Positions 15,651 through 55,982 of a stretch of DNA of 64,000 bases are shown here, piece after piece. The notes under the pieces were generated by a model. The model was not told where the DNA came from. It did not search any database and saw only the letters and a list, made by a program, of their open reading frames with translations. Origin of the DNA: Candidatus Thorarchaeota archaeon. GTDB taxonomy: Archaea; Asgardarchaeota; Thorarchaeia; Thorarchaeales; Thorarchaeaceae. Both the position numbers and the translations under genes were made by a program. The stretch's first letter is position 1; each line of letters opens with the position of its first letter. The stretch covers positions 3,518-67,517 of the forward strand of contig JBHIAE010000004.1 in NCBI GenBank assembly GCA_046758445.1. The letters run 5' to 3'.

Positions 15651-16733
15651 GTGATGACAATGGCCGATTACAAGGTAAAGGACATTGGGCTTGCCGAAGA
15701 AGGCAGGATGCTAATCGACTATGCGGAGAAACACATGCCTGTGCTTATACATCTCAGGAAGAAGTACTCCAAGACAAAGCCACTCAAGGGTATGAAGATT
15801 GCTGGCTGTCTCCATGTGACAAAGGAAACAGCTGTACTCGTGGAAACTCTTCGAGAGGTCGGAGCTGAAGTGGCCTGGTCTGGCTGCAATCCACTGTCGA
15901 CGAACGACAAAGTGGCTGCAGGACTTGCCGCCAATGATGTTCCGGTGTATGCCTGGCACAATCTGAACACCGAGGAATACTACTGGTGCATTGAACAGAC
16001 CCTCAAGACTGAGCCAACGTTGACGCTTGATGACGGAGCGGATCTGATTTTTACGTTACACAACAAGCACCAAGAGTTGATACCCAATCTCTATGGAGGT
16101 TCTGAAGAAACCACAACTGGGGTGATTCGTGTCCGAGCAATGGCTGAAGATAGTGCCCTGAAGTACCCAATCATGGCCGTCAATGATGCAGACACCAAAC
16201 ACTTGTTCGACAACGTATACGGTACCGGACAGAGCGTTTTCGATGGTGTAATGAGAGCTTCTGCGATTCTGATTGCTGGTAAGACCGTAGTCATCGGTGG
16301 CTACGGGTTCTGTGGTCGCGGAATGGCGGAGCGTGCAAGAGGACTGGGTGCAAATGTGATTGTCACTGAAGTTGATCCAATTCGCGGACTACAGGCTCGA
16401 ATGGATGGTTTCAGGGTTATGCCTATGAATGATGCTGCACGTGAAGGCGACCTGTTTCTGACTGCCACTGGTATGAAGGACATCATCACTGGTACTCATA
16501 TCAAAGAGATGAAGGATGGAGCAATTCTGGGAAATGCTGGACATTACAATGTTGAGATCAATGAGCCAGACCTTGCCAAGCTTAGCACTGGGAAGAGAAG
16601 GGTTCGACCTTCTTTGGATGAGTATACATTGAAGGATGGCAGAATTGTGTACCTTCTCGGAGAAGGTAGGCTTGTCAATCTGGTCGCTGCGGAAGGTCAC
16701 CCCAGTGTCAGAAGAGCATTCGCTGCTCTCTAG
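15651..16733 (+). CDS. ahcY: S-adenosyl-L-homocysteine hydrolase, N-terminal ~360 aa (interrupted gene)
   Basis: Contains YKVKDIGLAEEGR, the NAD-binding GYGFCGRG motif and RLVNLVAAEGHPS. The frame then terminates prematurely (VRRAFAAL*) relative to canonical SAHH. Confidence 0.85.
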   Translation: MMTMADYKVKDIGLAEEGRMLIDYAEKHMPVLIHLRKKYSKTKPLKGMKIAGCLHVTKETAVLVETLREVGAEVAWSGCNPLSTNDKVAAGLAANDVPVYAWHNLNTEEYYWCIEQTLKTEPTLTLDDGADLIFTLHNKHQELIPNLYGGSEETTTGVIRVRAMAEDSALKYPIMAVNDADTKHLFDNVYGTGQSVFDGVMRASAILIAGKTVVIGGYGFCGRGMAERARGLGANVIVTEVDPIRGLQARMDGFRVMPMNDAAREGDLFLTATGMKDIITGTHIKEMKDGAILGNAGHYNVEINEPDLAKLSTGKRRVRPSLDEYTLKDGRIVYLLGEGRLVNLVAAEGHPSVRRAFAAL

Positions 16734-16741
16734 ATGGAAAG

Positions 16742-16948
16742 GTGATGGACCTCAGCTTTGCAGGCCAGCTGAATGCAATGATCTGGTTGACCAAGCATGG
16801 GAAGGACCTCAAACCAGCCGTGTATGAGTTTCCGAAGGAACTTGATCAGCAGACTGCCTTGGCAAAACTAGAAACCATGGGTATAAAGATAGACAAATGG
16901 ACCCCAGAGCAGGAGGCCTACGCAAAGGCTTACGCCGAGGGAACCTAG
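16742..16948 (+). CDS. ahcY: S-adenosyl-L-homocysteine hydrolase C-terminal fragment, in a different frame
   Basis: VMDLSFAGQLNAMIWL...AVYEFPKELDQQTALAKLETMGIKIDKWTPEQEAY aligns with the canonical SAHH C-terminus VMSNSFTNQVLAQIELW...LPKKLDE...LGVKLTKLT.EQAEY. Confidence 0.6.
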   Translation: MMDLSFAGQLNAMIWLTKHGKDLKPAVYEFPKELDQQTALAKLETMGIKIDKWTPEQEAYAKAYAEGT

Positions 16949-16958
16949 TCAAAGAGTA

Positions 16959-16996
16959 GAAGAGGCAGACAACTATGCCTCTTCACCTCTTTTTTT
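16959..16996. terminator. hairpin plus T-tract between convergent genes, possibly a bidirectional terminator
   Basis: A perfect 9-bp stem (gaagaggca / tgcctcttc) with an 8-nt loop is followed by ttttttt. It sits between the end of ahcY (+) and the end of the LAGLIDADG-like ORF (-). Confidence 0.4.
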
Positions 16997-18853
16997 CTAC
17001 CCAGAATCTTCAGCTTCCAATTCAGGCGATTTAGTCAATTCCAGCCACTTTTGCGTTTGCTCAATCTTATTTCGGGCTTCCTTCACTCTACGGGGATGAG
17101 CCTTCATCCACTTCTCCAGTATTCTTCGCTTTCTCTTGTCGTTGGGAGGTGCTTGAATCCCCCACATAGCAACATCCTCTTGACTACTAGTTGCCGTAGT
17201 CCATTTCACTGAAACTCGACCTGTCTGCTCAGAGTAGCTGATGTATGAAGGGTCCTGTTCCTTAGTCATAATACCATTGGCCAAACAGAGTTGTTTCTCG
17301 TCCTCAACAAAGCCTGAGGGATTGGTACGAACAATATAGTCCAACTCTTTCGCAGCCTTAGCGTCTGCTGAGTCCTCAGATTCCATCAAGCTCTCTAGCA
17401 TGGTAATAGACAACTCACGAAATCGGCCCTCAACAGCGTCCCTTCCGTATCTACGCTCAGTAGGTTTCCCATGCTTCTTAATGAAGTCAACTTGACTACC
17501 TGTCAGTCTTGACACGAATCTGTATTTGTCAGCCTTCAAAGGATCATGAAGAACTACAGAACGACTCCAAGTGATTCTTGCATAGTCCTTTGCATCCACT
17601 GCGACTGAGCCTTCTTCAGGAACTAGCTCACAAAGATACGCTAACTGAACCCGAGAAGAGCCATATTTAATCCAATCCGGTAGTCGGACTCCTTGCAGAA
17701 CCTTGTCCCCGACGGTCATTCCTAGTCTGGCCAAAAGACGCCCAATGATATTCGGAACGTGAAAACCACCCTCCGACTTGTTTCTGTTGCGTATAATTGG
17801 AGTTGCAACTTCTCCAATTCGCTGCAGCATCGATCTCACAATGGTGCGGCGAGTGGCATCGTTTTCATAGTAGAATATACGGTGACCAGATTCGATGCTC
17901 CCATCGGAAGCAACGATTGCAAAAAGCCTCGCCATCAATGTGATGAAATCCACTTCTATGAGGAACTTTGGTCTGACAATCTGCCTCCCTTGACCCAATC
18001 GAGTTATTCCAGACTCGACGTCTTTGAGCGACTTCCCTTGTGCGTCCATCAGCAGCTGAAGCGTTCTTCCTCGCAAATGAGCTGAGTTCGGAGTGAAATC
18101 GGAGATGATTCGCCCTTCTCGACCTGTTACCTTCTCTTGATAGTCAGCTAGCTGTCTTACGACGTTGCTGAGGTCATAATCCCCATTGAGGCCAAGAAAG
18201 TTACGTCCTTCGCGAGTAATTGGCTTTCTCTCTCTCTTGCCGAAGAAGAAGAGCTCATCCGCGAACAGGTTGAGATAGTTGAATTTGCGAGTGTCTTTGC
18301 GCCAAAAGTAGAGAAGCGATCCCACGACGGCTATCCGCATCTCCTCATCAGGGTTTACATCCAGCCCAAGATTCTTGTTCAGTTTCTCTTCTATCTGCTT
18401 ACGATTTGCTTGTATCGACTTTCGTACATCTAGCAGCCATCTTGGACCATGATTGTAGTTGTAGGGTTTCAAGTGAGCGAAGGCAACTCGTTGAATAGGA
18501 GTTCTGGCAAGAAGATGCTCTAGAGCCCTGGCCATCCTTCCCACACTGTGCCGTTTTCGGTTTCTAATTGAACGAAGAGCACGAAAGACTGTTGAGGAAT
18601 CGATAAGATTCTCGAGTGCTCTAGTTGGTTGTTTCGATTCTAGCTTCCTTCTCATGACCTCATTCTCGACCACTTGGTTGATCAATTCTGGAGTCCTTCT
18701 TCCTGAAACCCACGTCCTAGCAGTACCGAATGGCACGTCCTGAGCCATACGAGCCACTGCCGAATGAGAGAGCTCCGAGTCCTCTCTTCTAATACGCATG
18801 AGCCGAAAGTATTCCTTGACTGCATTCAACATCTTGGCGAACATCTTGGCCAA
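16997..18853 (-). CDS. large protein with two LAGLIDADG-like endonuclease motifs (homing-endonuclease-like core with long N- and C-terminal extensions)
   Basis: Motif 1 is LMARLFAIVASDGSIE. About 95 aa later, motif 2 is VQLAYLCELVPEEGSVAV, with a GGFHVPNIIGRLLARLG stretch between them. This spacing is typical of monomeric double-motif LAGLIDADG enzymes. There are no Hint/intein termini. Confidence 0.55.
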   Translation of the reverse strand: MAKMFAKMLNAVKEYFRLMRIRREDSELSHSAVARMAQDVPFGTARTWVSGRRTPELINQVVENEVMRRKLESKQPTRALENLIDSSTVFRALRSIRNRKRHSVGRMARALEHLLARTPIQRVAFAHLKPYNYNHGPRWLLDVRKSIQANRKQIEEKLNKNLGLDVNPDEEMRIAVVGSLLYFWRKDTRKFNYLNLFADELFFFGKRERKPITREGRNFLGLNGDYDLSNVVRQLADYQEKVTGREGRIISDFTPNSAHLRGRTLQLLMDAQGKSLKDVESGITRLGQGRQIVRPKFLIEVDFITLMARLFAIVASDGSIESGHRIFYYENDATRRTIVRSMLQRIGEVATPIIRNRNKSEGGFHVPNIIGRLLARLGMTVGDKVLQGVRLPDWIKYGSSRVQLAYLCELVPEEGSVAVDAKDYARITWSRSVVLHDPLKADKYRFVSRLTGSQVDFIKKHGKPTERRYGRDAVEGRFRELSITMLESLMESEDSADAKAAKELDYIVRTNPSGFVEDEKQLCLANGIMTKEQDPSYISYSEQTGRVSVKWTTATSSQEDVAMWGIQAPPNDKRKRRILEKWMKAHPRRVKEARNKIEQTQKWLELTKSPELEAEDSG

Positions 18854-18940
18854 CTAGCTAACTACATAGGGACCAACTCAGGAAGAGAAGTGGACAAGTC
18901 TGCATTGTTCAAGATATTCTATGGTGAAACAGAGGCTCCA

Positions 18941-19198
18941 ATGATTGAGGAGTGTATTCTCAACATGGAACTTGAGGTGAAGGAGATAATCGAGTTTCCA
19001 GATCACTTCATGGTTCTTGGAGATGCCGTGACATCTTATGTTGATGAAGAGAATATGACCGATAACAAACCAGACATGAAGAAGATGAATCCTGTCATAT
19101 ACACCGGAGCTGAAAAACGACCGACATATTGGGCACTGGGTGAAAAGCTTGGAGATGCGTTTCGAATAGCGAAGGACTTCAGGAAACTCAAGTCATAG
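18941..19198 (+). CDS. hypothetical small protein
   Basis: An ORF from the internal ATG at 18941 (MIEECILNMELEV...), which avoids overlap with the neighbouring gene start. No homology was recognised. Confidence 0.25.
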   Translation: MIEECILNMELEVKEIIEFPDHFMVLGDAVTSYVDEENMTDNKPDMKKMNPVIYTGAEKRPTYWALGEKLGDAFRIAKDFRKLKS

Positions 19199-54048: not shown

Positions 54049-55020
54049 CTAACGCCGGGCTCTGACTATGACTACTAGTGCAACCGCAGTGACTCCTCCA
54101 GCTAGTACCAGCAACTGAATGTAGTCTATTCCGAAGAACGTCCAAGTTGTCGCTAGTTGAGAGAGTCCAATCGTTGGGTCGTAGTCTAGGTCATCACTGC
54201 CGAAGTTCTCGAATGCCAGGTAGATTGACTTACCTTCCTGAGGTCCCAATGCGTCACCATGTGAGGCGTGCACTTGAACCTGATGGCTCGCGTTGCCGGC
54301 AAAAGCATTCTGAGCGTACTCCATCCAACCATGCCCGAATGTGAACCTATTACCTTCGTGCTCAATGATGTCCACCTCCCGAGGTGATTGAATACGATTA
54401 TGCTCGGATTCAGACACAGTGAACTGGAAGACAAGGATTGAGTCGTTGTATGTCCACTCCCATCCTGAGATGCGCAAGTCGAACTTGAATTGGTCCGGAG
54501 TTGCTAGGTAGAAGTGTACTCGGATTTGAATCTCAACAACCATTGGATTCATGTGACCGGGCATTCCTGGCATTCCAGGCATTGTCGTGGTCATTCCAGC
54601 GCCTTGATGCGAGTAGGTTTCCGTGCTTGTGAAGTTGAAGTGTATTGCCGTGACAACACCGTTCTGTTCCTCTTCCACAAATCCATTGAACTCCCAACCT
54701 GCTACAGGCAACACAAACATGGCACCAACCAACCGATCCTCACCAGGTACGAACATACCATCGCCATTCGTGTCATTTGCCTCGAATAGTCTGAGGAACA
54801 TTATGTGGTAGTCAGTACCAGGGTCAGTTTCGTTCCACCAACGAAAGTGCGGGACCTCACCATTGGAGCTGACCATCACACCAATCTCACCTGTTGTGAT
54901 GGTGGCAACTCCCATCGAGTACTGGTGTTGCATTCCGCGATGGGGCTGTGCAACTGCAAAAGGCGCTGACACAAGAAGCACCAATGCAGCAAGCGTGACT
55001 AATACTCCTTTGTTGAACAT
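54049..55020 (-). CDS. secreted/surface protein with a signal peptide and a C-terminal TM anchor
   Basis: The signal peptide MFNKGVLVTLAALVLLVSAPFAVAQ precedes a Met/Pro/Gly-rich linker (MPGMPGMPGHMNPM) and a C-terminal TM (LLVLAGGVTAVALVVIVRARR). Confidence 0.5.
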   Translation of the reverse strand: MFNKGVLVTLAALVLLVSAPFAVAQPHRGMQHQYSMGVATITTGEIGVMVSSNGEVPHFRWWNETDPGTDYHIMFLRLFEANDTNGDGMFVPGEDRLVGAMFVLPVAGWEFNGFVEEEQNGVVTAIHFNFTSTETYSHQGAGMTTTMPGMPGMPGHMNPMVVEIQIRVHFYLATPDQFKFDLRISGWEWTYNDSILVFQFTVSESEHNRIQSPREVDIIEHEGNRFTFGHGWMEYAQNAFAGNASHQVQVHASHGDALGPQEGKSIYLAFENFGSDDLDYDPTIGLSQLATTWTFFGIDYIQLLVLAGGVTAVALVVIVRARR

Positions 55021-55124
55021 CTTAGACGTCACCAAGATGTGACTCATCAAATATGTATATAATAGTTCTATTCCACGTCTATAGAATTCGGACTTCGATA
55101 CCTCTCGAAGTGATTTTCATCAAC

Positions 55125-55982
55125 TCAAGGTATCGGAGCCGAGCTAATCAAGGCCAAGAGTAGAAGATTAAGATTCATCACAACCAGTGTCACAATCGCG
55201 GCCCTCGAGTATCTCACTGCCTTGGCCCTCGCGACAGCTACTGTCAGAATGAGGATACTCCAACATATGATTGCGGTCAAGAGTATGGTGAGGGGCCACC
55301 CGCTGAGTATCTCAACGGATGGGATGAAGTAGAACATCATCTCTACGAGAATGTGTGGCACAAACGCTAGGGGAACTGACGCGAATAGACCCTTGGAAAG
55401 GCCTTGTTTGCGAAGGATTGGAGCCGAGAGTGCTTCAACGAGTAGGTAGGTAGAAATCCAAGATCCCAGTGCTGCTAGGATAGTGACTCCGGCGTCAAAC
55501 CCTCCCTGAAGGAAGAATAGGAAGACGGGCAGAAGTCCTACCTCGGAGGCAAAGTAACCGTAAAGACCAAGGAATATTACAGTCTCAAAGAAGAATCGCC
55601 AGGGATCGGATTGAATTCGCACTACAATTGGCTTCAACGCGGTGAGGTCAACAATGATGGCTCGGTTGGTGCTAGATTGCTCTATATCCTTTATAGCCAT
55701 ACCTGCCTGGTCCTCGCCTTGTAGAATGATTTCGTATGCGGCCTGGCCCAGTTCTGTAAGCGCATACAACTTGTTACCTGTACGCTTCAACAAAGGCTCT
55801 TCAGACTTCGCCAGATGATCTAAATGAAAATAGAGCGTCCCTGGCTCAAGATCTAGCTCAGTCAAGTCAGTGTAGGAAACGGCCCCTTGGTCGCCAATCA
55901 TTACGATGATCTGTCTTCGGATGGTGTGTGACAGAGCACTAAACACTGAGTCCAACACCGAGTCCTTGTCGATCAGATTCAT
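55125..55982 (-). CDS. ArsR-like winged-HTH domain fused to a polytopic membrane domain
   Basis: From the internal Met (MNLIDKD...), SVFSALSHTIRRQIIVMIGDQGAVSYTDLTELDLEPGTLYFHLDHLAKS resembles an ArsR/SmtB wHTH. It is followed by ~5 TM helices. Confidence 0.55.
   Translation of the reverse strand: MNLIDKDSVLDSVFSALSHTIRRQIIVMIGDQGAVSYTDLTELDLEPGTLYFHLDHLAKSEEPLLKRTGNKLYALTELGQAAYEIILQGEDQAGMAIKDIEQSSTNRAIIVDLTALKPIVVRIQSDPWRFFFETVIFLGLYGYFASEVGLLPVFLFFLQGGFDAGVTILAALGSWISTYLLVEALSAPILRKQGLSKGLFASVPLAFVPHILVEMMFYFIPSVEILSGWPLTILLTAIICWSILILTVAVARAKAVRYSRAAIVTLVVMNLNLLLLALISSAPIP

What the first reader, a model, noticed from the sequence alone, without database searches (positions are those of the whole stretch)
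16997..18853. Free-standing 618-aa protein with a double LAGLIDADG-like endonuclease core and large flanking extensions
Two LAGLIDADG-type motifs (LFAIVASDGSI and AYLCELVPEEGSV) lie ~95 aa apart with a GG...LLARLG stretch between them, the spacing of monomeric homing endonucleases. The ORF is not inside an intron or intein: there are no Hint termini and it has its own start. It also carries a ~290-aa N-terminal region and a ~180-aa basic C-terminal tail (KRKRRILEKWMKAHPRRVKEARNK). It lies convergent with the interrupted ahcY gene, separated by a strong hairpin. It may be a domesticated or mobile LAGLIDADG nuclease, or a novel DNA-targeting protein. The LAGLIDADG-like motifs are degenerate enough that the catalytic acidic residues (D in the first motif, EE in the second) need checking.
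Basis: partly seen in the sequence, partly recalled or inferred. Interest (0 to 1): 0.55.

Follow-up and report, generated by a model that had tools for sequence, protein, structure and literature searches.

The report
Free-standing archaeal LAGLIDADG homing endonuclease gene
The 618-codon gene encodes a real two-domain LAGLIDADG DNA endonuclease from a large, unannotated Asgard-archaeal family that behaves as a selfish "homing" gene. It inserts beside housekeeping genes, here next to an ahcY gene that carries a 32-base archaeal-type intron.

Summary

The gene is optional. A close relative (L023) has ahcY followed directly by a flavin-reductase gene. Other copies are flanked by a duplicated 3' part of the neighbouring gene: ahcY in two independent events, scpB in one. 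One strain series shows a co-conversion tract.

The "interrupted" ahcY carries a 32-nt bulge-helix-bulge intron (16708-16739). Splicing it restores GHPSEVMD. It occurs in 32-, 33- and 50-nt versions with compensatory changes.

Best reading: a free-standing homing endonuclease that travels as a cassette with a replacement ahcY 3' exon and often the mini-intron. The window copy has lost its first ~25 codons and its promoter to a deletion, so it may be decaying. DNA cleavage, RNA splicing and any protective role of the intron are inferred, not shown.

The parts
16997..18853 (-). 618-aa ORF: free-standing single-chain LAGLIDADG endonuclease, 5'-truncated relative to its family
17378..17968 (-). 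Double LAGLIDADG nuclease core (aa 296-492), two alpha-beta-beta-alpha-beta-beta-alpha halves
17894..17926 (-). LAGLIDADG motif 1 (LFAIVASDGSI); catalytic D317 is codon 17903-17905
   Evidence: D in 147/148 relatives
17603..17641 (-). LAGLIDADG motif 2 (AYLCELVPEEGSV); catalytic E414 is codon 17612-17614
   Evidence: D or E in 147/147 relatives
17702..17710 (-). GDK motif (aa 382-384). The Lys aligns with the conserved lysine between the two LAGLIDADG motifs of intein endonucleases
   Evidence: (K/R 99%)
17969..18850 (-). Family-specific N-terminal region (aa 2-295): a helix-turn-helix-like segment followed by an alpha/beta domain with no known fold match
17000..17377 (-). Family-specific C-terminal domain with a basic tail (aa 493-618); conserved E519, R546, W551, K575
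   Evidence: survives alone as an ORF in the L029 remnant
16959..16984 (.). Hairpin terminator shared by the convergent ahcY and endonuclease genes
   Evidence: also present in L003
15660..16707 (+). ahcY exon 1 (ends ...GHPS + G)
16708..16739 (+). 32-nt bulge-helix-bulge mini-intron in ahcY
16740..16948 (+). ahcY exon 2 (AG|GTG ATG GAC ... stop). This is the part that is duplicated around the endonuclease gene in L003 and L029
18827..18850 (-). Tandem 12-nt duplication (GCCAAGATGTTC/GCCAAGATGTTG) at the deletion junction that truncated the endonuclease gene
18851..19198 (+). 5'-truncated flavin-reductase-like gene. It is full length and directly follows ahcY in the empty-site relative L023

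Best explanation
The ORF encodes a monomeric, two-domain LAGLIDADG endonuclease from a previously unannotated Asgard-archaeal family. That family behaves as free-standing homing endonuclease genes (HEGs).

Shown:
- The fold.
- Conservation of both metal-binding acidic residues and of a lysine equivalent to the one between the two motifs in intein endonucleases.
- Purifying selection on the ORF.
- Optional presence of the gene between ahcY and a flavin-reductase gene.
- Duplicated, sequence-diverged 3' parts of the neighbouring gene (ahcY or scpB) flanking other copies.
- A mosaic or co-conversion tract at the ahcY site.

Inferred mechanism:
- The protein binds a long asymmetric site in the conserved GHPSEVMD region of an ahcY allele that lacks the cassette. 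The LAGLIDADG saddle does the core binding, and the N-terminal HTH region and C-terminal basic domain extend the contacts.
- It cuts both strands. Repair copies the donor's ahcY 3' exon, and often the HEG, into the broken chromosome.
- When no downstream homology exists, the broken end is joined non-homologously and leaves a displaced copy of the old 3' exon. That copy begins in codon Gly346, about 11 nt upstream of the intron site.
- In one lineage the cassette also carries a 32-nt BHB intron. The tRNA-splicing endonuclease would remove it, restoring ...GHPS-E-VMD....
- I propose that the intron, together with substitutions such as E350S in intron-less HEG-bearing genomes, makes the resident allele uncleavable. 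The intron stays behind when the HEG is lost by recombination between the duplicated exons.

The window copy has lost its first ~25 codons and its upstream region to a deletion. It may therefore be an early-decay copy.
For: Fold:
- AF2 mean pLDDT is 85.2.

Active site:
- D317 is conserved in 147/148 relatives, position 414 is D/E in 147/147, K384 is K/R in 99% and R335 in 100%.
- The core profile aligns SDG, GDK and EDG to ADG, K and CDG of the TliVMA intein endonuclease.

Family and selection:
- 797 cluster representatives at E<=1e-3, and 226 at E<=1e-30.
- Names given by sources are Thor-, Hermod- and Promethearchaeota 'hypothetical'.
- dN/dS is 0.14-0.17.

Optional gene:
- L023 has ahcY, then 105 nt, then a full-length Flavin_Reduct gene with no HEG.
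- Nine intron-bearing ahcY loci have no HEG or remnant.

Footprints:
- L003 has ahcY exon 2 twice around the HEG, about 85% identical at the nucleotide level.
- L029 has exon 2A, a HEG C-terminal remnant, cargo, then exon 2B.
- L008 and L033 have a scpB 3' remnant upstream of a HEG that is convergent with scpB.
- The HEG is the only gene common to these cassettes.

Co-transfer:
- L029's exon 2A and its HEG remnant both resemble the L006/L001 clade, whereas exon 2B is 100% identical to the sister strain L021.
- L021 matches copy A through the intron plus ~40 nt, then matches copy B.

Intron:
- BHB geometry and frame restoration.
- Versions of 32, 33 and 50 nt, with 5 pairs changed on both sides and 0/500 shuffles reaching the observed score.

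Literature:
- Asgard EndA is the broad-specificity (alpha-beta)2 type (PMC5829648).
- Free-standing HEGs are defined as optional genes between conserved genes, and collaborative homing is described (PMC6083498).
Against: - No cleavage, splicing or expression data exist; everything rests on comparative sequence.
- Pfam gives no hit for the window protein at E<=10. Only one relative reaches LAGLIDADG_3.
- The gene sits at the same place in several diverged genomes: next to ahcY in 5-6 loci and next to scpB in 6. With purifying selection, this also fits a vertically inherited cellular gene.
- Three HEG-bearing genomes have an intron-less ahcY, and nine intron-bearing loci have no HEG. Intron and HEG are therefore separable.
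- The inferred break (Gly346 codon) lies about 11 nt from the intron site, so the intron may lie outside a 20-22 bp core target.
- The loci come from metagenome contigs, and the intron loci were found with a pattern that fixed helix 1 and helix 2.
- The window copy is truncated and may be inactive.
Confidence: 0.7

Rival explanations
1. A domesticated LAGLIDADG protein, similar to WhiA or other host-recruited LAGLIDADG folds. In this reading it is a vertically inherited DNA-binding regulator or chromosomal factor of Asgard archaea that keeps the fold but no longer functions as a mobile nuclease.
Against: Both catalytic acidic residues are retained in 99-100% of 148 diverged members, whereas WhiA lacks them (established knowledge of WhiA). 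There is presence/absence polymorphism between close relatives. Duplicated target-gene 3' ends flank the gene in three loci. A decayed remnant exists. The flanking exon and the gene were co-transferred from a different lineage.
Confidence: 0.15
2. The family is mobile, but the window copy is a dead relic. The deletion at 18851 removed its promoter and first ~25 codons, so in this genome it is an unexpressed pseudogene awaiting loss.
For: Homology with the empty-site relative resumes exactly at the ORF's first codon. The neighbouring flavin-reductase gene is also 5'-truncated (Pfam profile 58-138 of 153). The conserved N-terminal module PxTYxxF..RHPYL is missing. The start codon is TTG, at a junction with a 12-nt duplication. 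Another locus (L029) shows more advanced decay.
Against: 618 codons remain open with every conserved catalytic residue. In-frame ATG codons lie at residues 4 and 8. No frameshift or stop has accumulated, so the truncation is either recent or tolerated.
Confidence: 0.4
3. The endonuclease is only a passenger on a larger integrative element that enters ahcY or scpB by a site-specific recombinase. The duplicated 3' ends would then be att-site duplications.
For: L003 carries six other genes between the two ahcY exon-2 copies. Integrative elements of archaea typically restore the 3' end of their target gene (established knowledge).
Against: No integrase or transposase is present in the L003, L029 or L008 cassettes. 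The two exon copies share no long identical core at their boundaries. The cargo differs completely between loci, and the LAGLIDADG gene is the only shared component. In L008/L033 the cassette is essentially the endonuclease gene alone.
Confidence: 0.05
4. The ahcY interruption is unrelated to the endonuclease. The intron would be an old, vertically inherited BHB intron, or the break a pseudogenising indel, and the adjacency is coincidental.
For: Nine intron-bearing loci lack the HEG and three HEG-bearing loci lack the intron. The inferred break point is about 11 nt away from the intron site.
Against: The displaced exon copies begin within 11-12 nt of the intron site in two independent events. 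The native allele preserved in L029 is intron-less, while its sister strain L021 has the donor-type intron plus about 40 nt of donor exon. That shows recent DNA-level introduction of the intron at this site. An indel artefact is excluded by the 32-, 33- and 50-nt versions with compensatory changes.
Confidence: 0.3

Closest known systems
Archaeal single-chain LAGLIDADG homing endonucleases, both from rRNA BHB introns and intein-embedded (I-DmoI, I-Tsp061I, PI-PfuI, TliVMA intein endonuclease)
   Different: The gene lies neither inside an intron nor inside an intein. The protein is three times larger than I-DmoI, with about 295 aa of family-specific N-terminal sequence (HTH plus an unknown fold) and a ~125-aa C-terminal domain. 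It is not recognised by Pfam or NCBIfam models. It sits next to protein-coding housekeeping genes rather than rRNA genes.
Free-standing phage homing endonucleases and 'collaborative homing' (F-CphI with the psbA group I intron in cyanophage S-PM2; T4 MobA with the gene 60 bypass insert; Seg and Mob enzymes)
   Same: An optional gene lies between conserved genes, next to the gene it presumably cuts. An ORF-less intervening sequence sits in the neighbouring gene close to the inferred break. Flanking sequence is co-converted (PMC6083498).
   Different: The nuclease family is different: LAGLIDADG rather than EndoVII, GIY-YIG or HNH. The host is a cellular Asgard archaeon, not a phage. The intervening sequence is a protein-spliced BHB intron, not a ribozyme or a bypass element. 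Protection by the intron is not shown here.
BHB introns in archaeal protein-coding genes (cbf5 of Crenarchaeota)
   Same: A very short ORF-less intron (16-44 nt in cbf5, 32-50 nt here) with a BHB-like motif at the exon-intron boundaries. The host lineage has a heteromeric, broad-specificity EndA (PMC2738675, PMC5829648).
   Different: The gene (ahcY) and the phylum (Thorarchaeota, Asgard) are different. Here the intron is linked to a mobile endonuclease cassette and shows a DNA-level conversion tract. The cbf5 paper notes that its intron is too short to encode a homing endonuclease (PMC2738675).
WhiA / DUF199 (bacterial LAGLIDADG-plus-HTH transcription factor)
   Different: WhiA has lost the catalytic acidic residues and is a universal vertically inherited gene. 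Here the residues are invariant and the gene is optional. The HTH is N-terminal rather than C-terminal.

Membership tests
LAGLIDADG endonuclease (single-chain, two-domain) | Two alpha-beta-beta-alpha-beta-beta-alpha domains packed through the two LAGLIDADG helices | tested here: met
LAGLIDADG endonuclease (single-chain, two-domain) | An acidic metal-binding residue at the C-terminal end of each LAGLIDADG helix | tested here: met
   D317 (147/148) and D/E414 (147/147) across diverged relatives. They align to the Asp residues of both motifs of the TliVMA intein endonuclease.
LAGLIDADG endonuclease (single-chain, two-domain) | Significant match to the curated sequence models LAGLIDADG_1/2/3 | tested here: not met
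   No Pfam hit for the window protein at E<=10. Only one relative matches LAGLIDADG_3 (3.9e-6; 1.3e-4 for a core segment). There is a weak NCBIfam hit to the endonuclease part of an RtcB intein model (2.3e-4). This is a limit of model sensitivity rather than a structural failure.
LAGLIDADG endonuclease (single-chain, two-domain) | Site-specific cleavage of a 14-40 bp target leaving 4-nt 3' overhangs | not testable with these tools
   Needs biochemistry. The only indirect clue is that displaced exon copies start in the same codon (Gly346) in two independent events.
Free-standing homing endonuclease gene | Own ORF, not embedded in an intron or intein | tested here: met
   No Hint or intein families in Pfam or NCBIfam. 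The gene is convergent with ahcY and has its own terminator. The nearby intron is only 32 nt.
Free-standing homing endonuclease gene | Optional insertion between conserved genes (filled and empty sites in related genomes) | tested here: met
   Window: ahcY, HEG, then a truncated flavin reductase. L023: ahcY, 105 nt, then a full-length flavin reductase, with 88% nt identity in the shared gene. L029 (remnant) versus L020/L021/L030 (none).
Free-standing homing endonuclease gene | Mobility by gene conversion with co-conversion of flanking markers | tested here: met
   Indirect evidence only. L021 is identical to donor-type copy A through the intron plus ~40 nt, and then identical to native copy B. 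Exon 2A and the HEG remnant share the same foreign affinity. Duplicated 3' exons are only ~85% identical.
Intein-associated homing endonuclease (PI-SceI, PI-PfuI, HO type) | Hint (protein-splicing) domain flanking the endonuclease, inserted in frame in a host protein | tested here: not met
WhiA-like domesticated LAGLIDADG protein | Loss of the catalytic acidic residues with retention of the scaffold; universal vertical inheritance | tested here: not met
   The acidic residues are invariant, and the gene is absent from close relatives.
Archaeal bulge-helix-bulge intron (the ahcY interruption) | Two 3-nt bulges separated by a 4-bp helix, with cleavage in each bulge; exon ligation restores function | tested here: met
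   The bulges are UGU and AAA. The central helix is CCAG/AUGG (three Watson-Crick pairs plus one G-A), flanked by helices GUCACC/GGUGAU and the intron hairpin. Cutting after the 2nd bulge nucleotide on both sides removes 16708-16739 and yields a 418-aa AhcY with GHPSEVMD. One central pair is non-canonical, and helix 1 is only 3 bp in most relatives, so this is a relaxed BHB.
Archaeal bulge-helix-bulge intron (the ahcY interruption) | Structure conserved through compensatory change | tested here: met
   Five pairs have changes on both sides. The covariation score is 0.208 against 0.085 for shuffles (0/500 reach it), and it collapses when partners are slid. Length variants of 32, 33 and 50 nt keep the same boundaries. 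Helices 1 and 2 could not vary because the search pattern fixed them.
Archaeal bulge-helix-bulge intron (the ahcY interruption) | Excision by the tRNA-splicing endonuclease and ligation in vivo | not testable with these tools
   Needs RT-PCR or RNA-seq, or an EndA assay. The literature says Asgard EndA is the broad-specificity (alpha-beta)2 type (PMC5829648).
Collaborative homing (intron protects, free-standing HEG mobilises) | The HEG cleaves the intron-less allele at or near the intron insertion site, and the intron prevents cleavage | not testable with these tools
   Only positional evidence: the inferred break is about 11 nt upstream of the intron site, and the intron lies inside the converted tract.

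The most novel reading that the evidence does not exclude
[quoted passage not shown] The endonuclease breaks intron-less alleles, and repair copies in the intron plus a replacement 3' exon, and sometimes the endonuclease gene. The intron then shields the allele and persists after the endonuclease gene is lost. This would be an archaeal, protein-spliced counterpart of phage 'collaborative homing'. It would also give a concrete route by which short introns can invade protein-coding genes in the archaeal lineage closest to eukaryotes.
Probability: 0.4. Interest if true: 0.8.

Novelty: new variant of a known kind. Interest (0 to 1): 0.66.

Why it matters
LAGLIDADG homing endonucleases in archaea are known from rRNA introns and inteins. 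Here the nuclease is free-standing, about 600-1600 aa long, carries family-specific DNA-binding extensions, and belongs to a family of hundreds of diverged members restricted so far to Asgard archaea and invisible to Pfam and NCBIfam. These genes appear to remodel the 3' ends of essential genes (ahcY, scpB) and to drive recombination between lineages. This matters for interpreting Asgard MAGs, where split or duplicated housekeeping genes can look like assembly errors or pseudogenes.

The linked 32-nt BHB intron is, within the literature I could search, the first described outside crenarchaeal cbf5 in a protein-coding gene, and it comes with evidence of DNA-level transfer. Long-target, monomeric LAGLIDADG enzymes with extra recognition modules are also of practical interest as genome-engineering scaffolds.

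Tried and rejected
- **Sequence libraries.** Pfam, NCBIfam and PDB sequence searches with the protein gave nothing usable. The whole-family profile against PDB gave only noise plus an MBF-like HTH hint.
- **Other collections.** There are no relatives in IMG/VR viral contigs, and a first attempt with a too-diverse alignment failed. No Rfam family covers the intron or hairpin.
- **Second copy.** The window holds no second family copy, and the HEG-less loci hold no remnant.
- **Frameshift or bypass.** Programmed frameshifting and gene-60-like translational bypass were considered for the ahcY interruption and rejected. There are stops in frame and no matching take-off and landing codons, and lengths of 32, 33 and 50 nt with constant BHB boundaries cannot be served by one shift.
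- **Sequencing or assembly error.** Rejected because the insert recurs in 12 contigs with compensatory changes.
- **Integrase-type att duplication.** Rejected because there is no recombinase gene and no identical core repeat.
- **Pattern-scan false positives.** About half of the 22 metagenome pattern hits were unrelated repeats and were discarded.
- **dS saturation.** dS was saturated for the window-L003 pair, so dN/dS comes only from the L001/L005/L006 pairs.
Full report
**1. Observation**

The ORF at 16997..18853 on the minus strand (618 aa, TTG start) is present as described. It is identical to a protein that NCBI lists as 'hypothetical' from a Candidatus Thorarchaeota MAG. The gene is convergent with ahcY. 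A 9-bp G+C-rich hairpin followed by a T-run lies between them at 16959-16984. ahcY is split into a 360-aa ORF and a 68-aa ORF.

**2. Is it a LAGLIDADG protein?**

Sequence libraries almost fail:
- Pfam gives nothing at E<=10.
- NCBIfam gives only a weak hit (2.3e-4) to the endonuclease segment of an intein-containing RtcB model.
- PDB sequence search gives nothing.

The core runs from about aa 296 to 492. Helix 300-317 and helix 400-413 are the two LAGLIDADG helices.

A profile of 26 diverse core segments aligns weakly (E 0.035) to the same TliVMA intein endonuclease. That alignment puts the family's SDG on the intein's ADG, its GDK lysine on the intein's lysine between the motifs, and its EDG on the intein's CDG. 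From established knowledge of intein endonuclease blocks C, D and E, these correspond to the two metal-binding aspartates and the auxiliary lysine.

**3. The family**

The word-indexed search found only eight relatives. The exhaustive profile search found 797 cluster representatives at E<=1e-3 and 226 at E<=1e-30, ranging from 600 to 1600 aa. Where sources give a name, it is 'hypothetical protein' from Thorarchaeota, Hermodarchaeota or Promethearchaeota. None was found in IMG/VR.

Across 148 representatives aligned to the family HMM:
- D317 is Asp in 147/148.
- Position 414 is Asp or Glu in 147/147.
- G415 is conserved in 95%, R335 in 100%, K384 is K/R in 99%, and K575 is conserved in 99%.

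Where dS is not saturated, dN/dS between orthologues is 0.14-0.17.

**4. The gene is optional**

Upstream synteny (hexapeptide transferase, a membrane protein, an AsnC-type regulator, ahcY) is shared by many Thorarchaeota contigs. What follows ahcY varies.

In L023, ahcY is followed after 105 nt by a full-length flavin-reductase-like gene of 191 aa (Pfam Flavin_Reduct, 4e-24). In the window the same gene is 88% identical at the nucleotide level, but only from position 18851 onward. It covers only profile positions 58-138 of 153. The 1.9 kb between ahcY and 18851 is the endonuclease gene. The window is therefore a filled site and L023 an empty site.

In the window a later deletion removed the 5' ends of both divergently oriented genes. 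Three things show this:
- The endonuclease ORF begins exactly at the junction.
- It lacks the ~22-25 N-terminal residues (PxTYxxF...RHPYL...) present in its relatives.
- A 12-nt tandem duplication sits at the junction, 18827-18850.

Nine other ahcY loci have no copy or remnant of the family downstream.

**5. Footprints of insertion**

*L003.* The endonuclease is 67% identical to the window's. The ahcY 3' part (aa 347/351-418) occurs twice: once attached to the gene, and once 6.4 kb away beyond the endonuclease gene and six other genes. The displaced copy abuts the homologue of the window's 438-aa membrane-protein gene. The two copies are 97% identical in protein but only about 85% identical in DNA, so they have different origins.

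*L029.* The order is: ahcY exon 1, intron, exon 2A, a 157-codon ORF that matches only the C-terminal domain of the family (a decayed endonuclease gene), unrelated genes, and a second exon 2. Both displaced copies begin in the Gly346 codon. The cargo and junction sequences differ between L003 and L029, so these are independent events.

*L008 and L033.* In a different clade the gene is convergent with scpB in six loci. In L008 and L033 a remnant of the scpB 3' end (LAQLKFKMK...) lies about 58 nt upstream of the endonuclease start.

The LAGLIDADG gene is the only component shared by all these cassettes. None contains an integrase, and the repeats have no identical att-like core.

**6. Co-conversion**

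L029's displaced exon 2B is 100% identical to exon 2 of the contigs L020/L021/L030. Its exon 2A is only 75-80% identical to them. Exon 2A is closest to L006 (0.80), and the endonuclease remnant is also closest to L006/L001/L005 (66-71%, against 52% for the window). The 3' exon and the endonuclease gene therefore arrived together from another lineage.

L021 itself is identical to L029's copy A through the end of exon 1, the intron and about 40 nt of exon 2. From there it switches to being identical to copy B. The start of copy B preserves the native allele, which is intron-less and of the GHPS-S-VMD type. L021 is thus one of two things:
- the product of recombination between the duplicated exons, which deletes the endonuclease gene; or
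- a homing event with a short conversion tract.

Either way, the intron entered this background as DNA, at this site, in company with the endonuclease cassette.

**7. The ahcY interruption is a bulge-helix-bulge intron**

Between ...CAC CCC AGT G and AG GTG ATG GAC... lie 32 nt (16708-16739). The surrounding RNA can form the following:
- helix 1, GUCACC/GGUGAU (exon-exon);
- a 4-position central helix, CCAG/AUGG, with three Watson-Crick pairs and one G-A;
- two 3-nt bulges, UGU and AAA;
- an intron hairpin with loop UUCGC.

Cutting after the second nucleotide of each bulge is the position implied by the canonical 37/38 tRNA intron (my knowledge; the 3-nt/4-bp geometry is stated in PMC5829648). 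It joins G16707 to A16740, creates a GAG codon and yields a 418-aa AhcY with the archaeal consensus GHPSEVMD.

A pattern scan of metagenome contigs found ten further ahcY loci with an insert at the same place. The inserts are 32, 33 or 50 nt long, and the 50-nt version has an extra hairpin. The intron hairpin shows five pairs with changes on both sides. The covariation score is 0.208 against 0.085 in shuffles (0/500 reach it), and it collapses when partners are slid. Helices 1 and 2 were fixed by the search pattern, so they say nothing either way. In most relatives helix 1 is only 3 bp, so this is a relaxed BHB.

Frameshifting, translational bypass and sequencing error do not fit the length variants and in-frame stops. 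According to PMC5829648, Asgard archaea have the (alpha-beta)2 EndA with the L1 loop that confers broad substrate range. The only archaeal pre-mRNA introns that paper cites are the crenarchaeal cbf5 ones. PMC2738675 notes that those introns are too short to encode a homing endonuclease.

**8. How it most likely works**

*Shown:* the fold, the active-site conservation, optional presence, duplicated and diverged target-gene 3' ends, co-transfer of exon and endonuclease gene, and a conversion tract around the intron.

*Inferred:*
- The protein recognises a long asymmetric site in the conserved GHPSEVMD-encoding region of alleles that lack the cassette, and cuts both strands.
- Repair from a cassette-bearing chromosome copies the donor's sequence rightward.
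- If synthesis resolves inside exon 2, only the intron and a short tract are transferred. This would explain the many intron-positive loci without the endonuclease gene.
- If synthesis runs on and finds downstream homology, the endonuclease gene is transferred cleanly (the window ancestor, L001, L006).
- If there is no downstream homology, the end is joined illegitimately and leaves a displaced exon 2 (L003, L029; scpB in L008/L033).
- Resident alleles must be uncleavable. Candidates for that are the intron, and the E350S change (TCT) seen in all three intron-less alleles that sit next to the endonuclease gene.

This is the logic of free-standing phage endonucleases and of 'collaborative homing' (PMC6083498). 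The difference is that the nuclease is LAGLIDADG and the intron is protein-spliced.

*Weak point:* the displaced copies start about 11 nt upstream of the intron site. The intron may therefore lie at the edge of, or outside, a 20-22 bp core target, and protection would then depend on the extra DNA-binding domains.

**9. Rivals**

- A WhiA-like domesticated factor fits the conserved positions and purifying selection. It does not fit the invariant catalytic residues, the empty sites, the remnant or the foreign origin of the flanking exon.
- A larger integrative element with its own recombinase is not supported by gene content.
- That the window copy itself is dead is quite possible, because of the truncated 5' end and lost promoter. 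However, 618 codons and all key residues are intact.
- That the intron and the endonuclease are unrelated cannot be excluded, but it is disfavoured by the shared break region and the conversion tract.

**10. Caveats**

- All comparison loci are metagenome or MAG contigs.
- The AF2 alignment is shallow (8 sequences), although confidence is high and the fold match is unambiguous.
- The intron loci were ascertained with a pattern that fixes the BHB core.
- No expression, splicing or cleavage data exist.

**Verdict**

The gene belongs to a new, large, Asgard-specific family of free-standing LAGLIDADG homing endonucleases. It is probably linked to a mobile BHB mini-intron in ahcY, and the copy in this window is 5'-truncated.

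Noticed in passing
window 16708-16739 (ahcY 15660-16948): ahcY is interrupted by a 32-nt bulge-helix-bulge intron. Splicing restores a 418-aa AhcY with GHPSEVMD. Ten more metagenome loci carry it in 32-, 33- or 50-nt versions with compensatory changes. In the literature I could search, archaeal protein-coding BHB introns are otherwise described only for crenarchaeal cbf5.
   Followed up: yes
window 18764-19198 (+), real homology from 18851: The 144-aa ORF that overlaps the endonuclease start is a 5'-truncated flavin-reductase-like gene (Pfam profile positions 58-138 of 153). It is full length (191 aa) in L023. One deletion removed the 5' ends of both divergent genes.
   Followed up: yes
window 18827-18850 (-): Tandem 12-nt duplication GCCAAGATGTTC/GCCAAGATGTTG (AKMF-AKML) lies directly at the deletion junction. 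It may be a repair scar.
   Followed up: partly
L008 1601-1654 and L033 5881-5943: A 20-27-codon remnant of the scpB 3' end (LAQLKFKMK[KR]ILE...) is conserved about 58 nt upstream of the endonuclease start in two genomes whose endonucleases are only 58% identical. It could simply be a scar, or it could be a retained target-like operator for autoregulation.
   Followed up: partly
L014 1219-1292 (-): A 50-nt version of the ahcY intron has an additional hairpin (GCUAC-UUUAC-GUAGC) inserted in the intron stem, making a three-way junction while keeping the same BHB boundaries.
   Followed up: partly
L003 1317-5434; window 54052-55982: The six genes carried between the two ahcY exon-2 copies in L003 include an HTH-membrane protein and a secreted or membrane protein. 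Their homologues (48% and 40% identity) lie 36 kb away from the endonuclease gene in the window, which indicates rearrangement at this locus.
   Followed up: no
L001/L007, L005, L006 (ahcY codon 350): All three intron-less ahcY alleles that sit next to an endonuclease gene encode GHPS-S-VMD (TCT) instead of the archaeal consensus GHPS-E-VMD. This is a possible target-immunity substitution. The native allele preserved in L029 copy B is also S-type.
   Followed up: partly
L005 and L001/L007 (same MAG, OWC2): One MAG holds two versions of the ahcY-endonuclease pair: ahcY 94% identical and the endonuclease 84% identical. This means either strain heterogeneity or a duplicated locus. The same MAG also holds a more distant family member (RDE11813.1).
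   Followed up: no
L009 and L010 (Hermodarchaeota): These loci have extremely strand-skewed, A/C-rich coding sequence that gives long open frames in several phases. The family member there carries a very long N-terminal extension with internal repeats and is followed by a large membrane-protein gene in both genomes.
   Followed up: no
L011, L015, L017, L022, L024, L026-L028, L031, L032: The intron pattern also hit an unrelated repeated element rich in CCATGGAA units in several contigs from two metagenomes. These hits were discarded as irrelevant.
   Followed up: no
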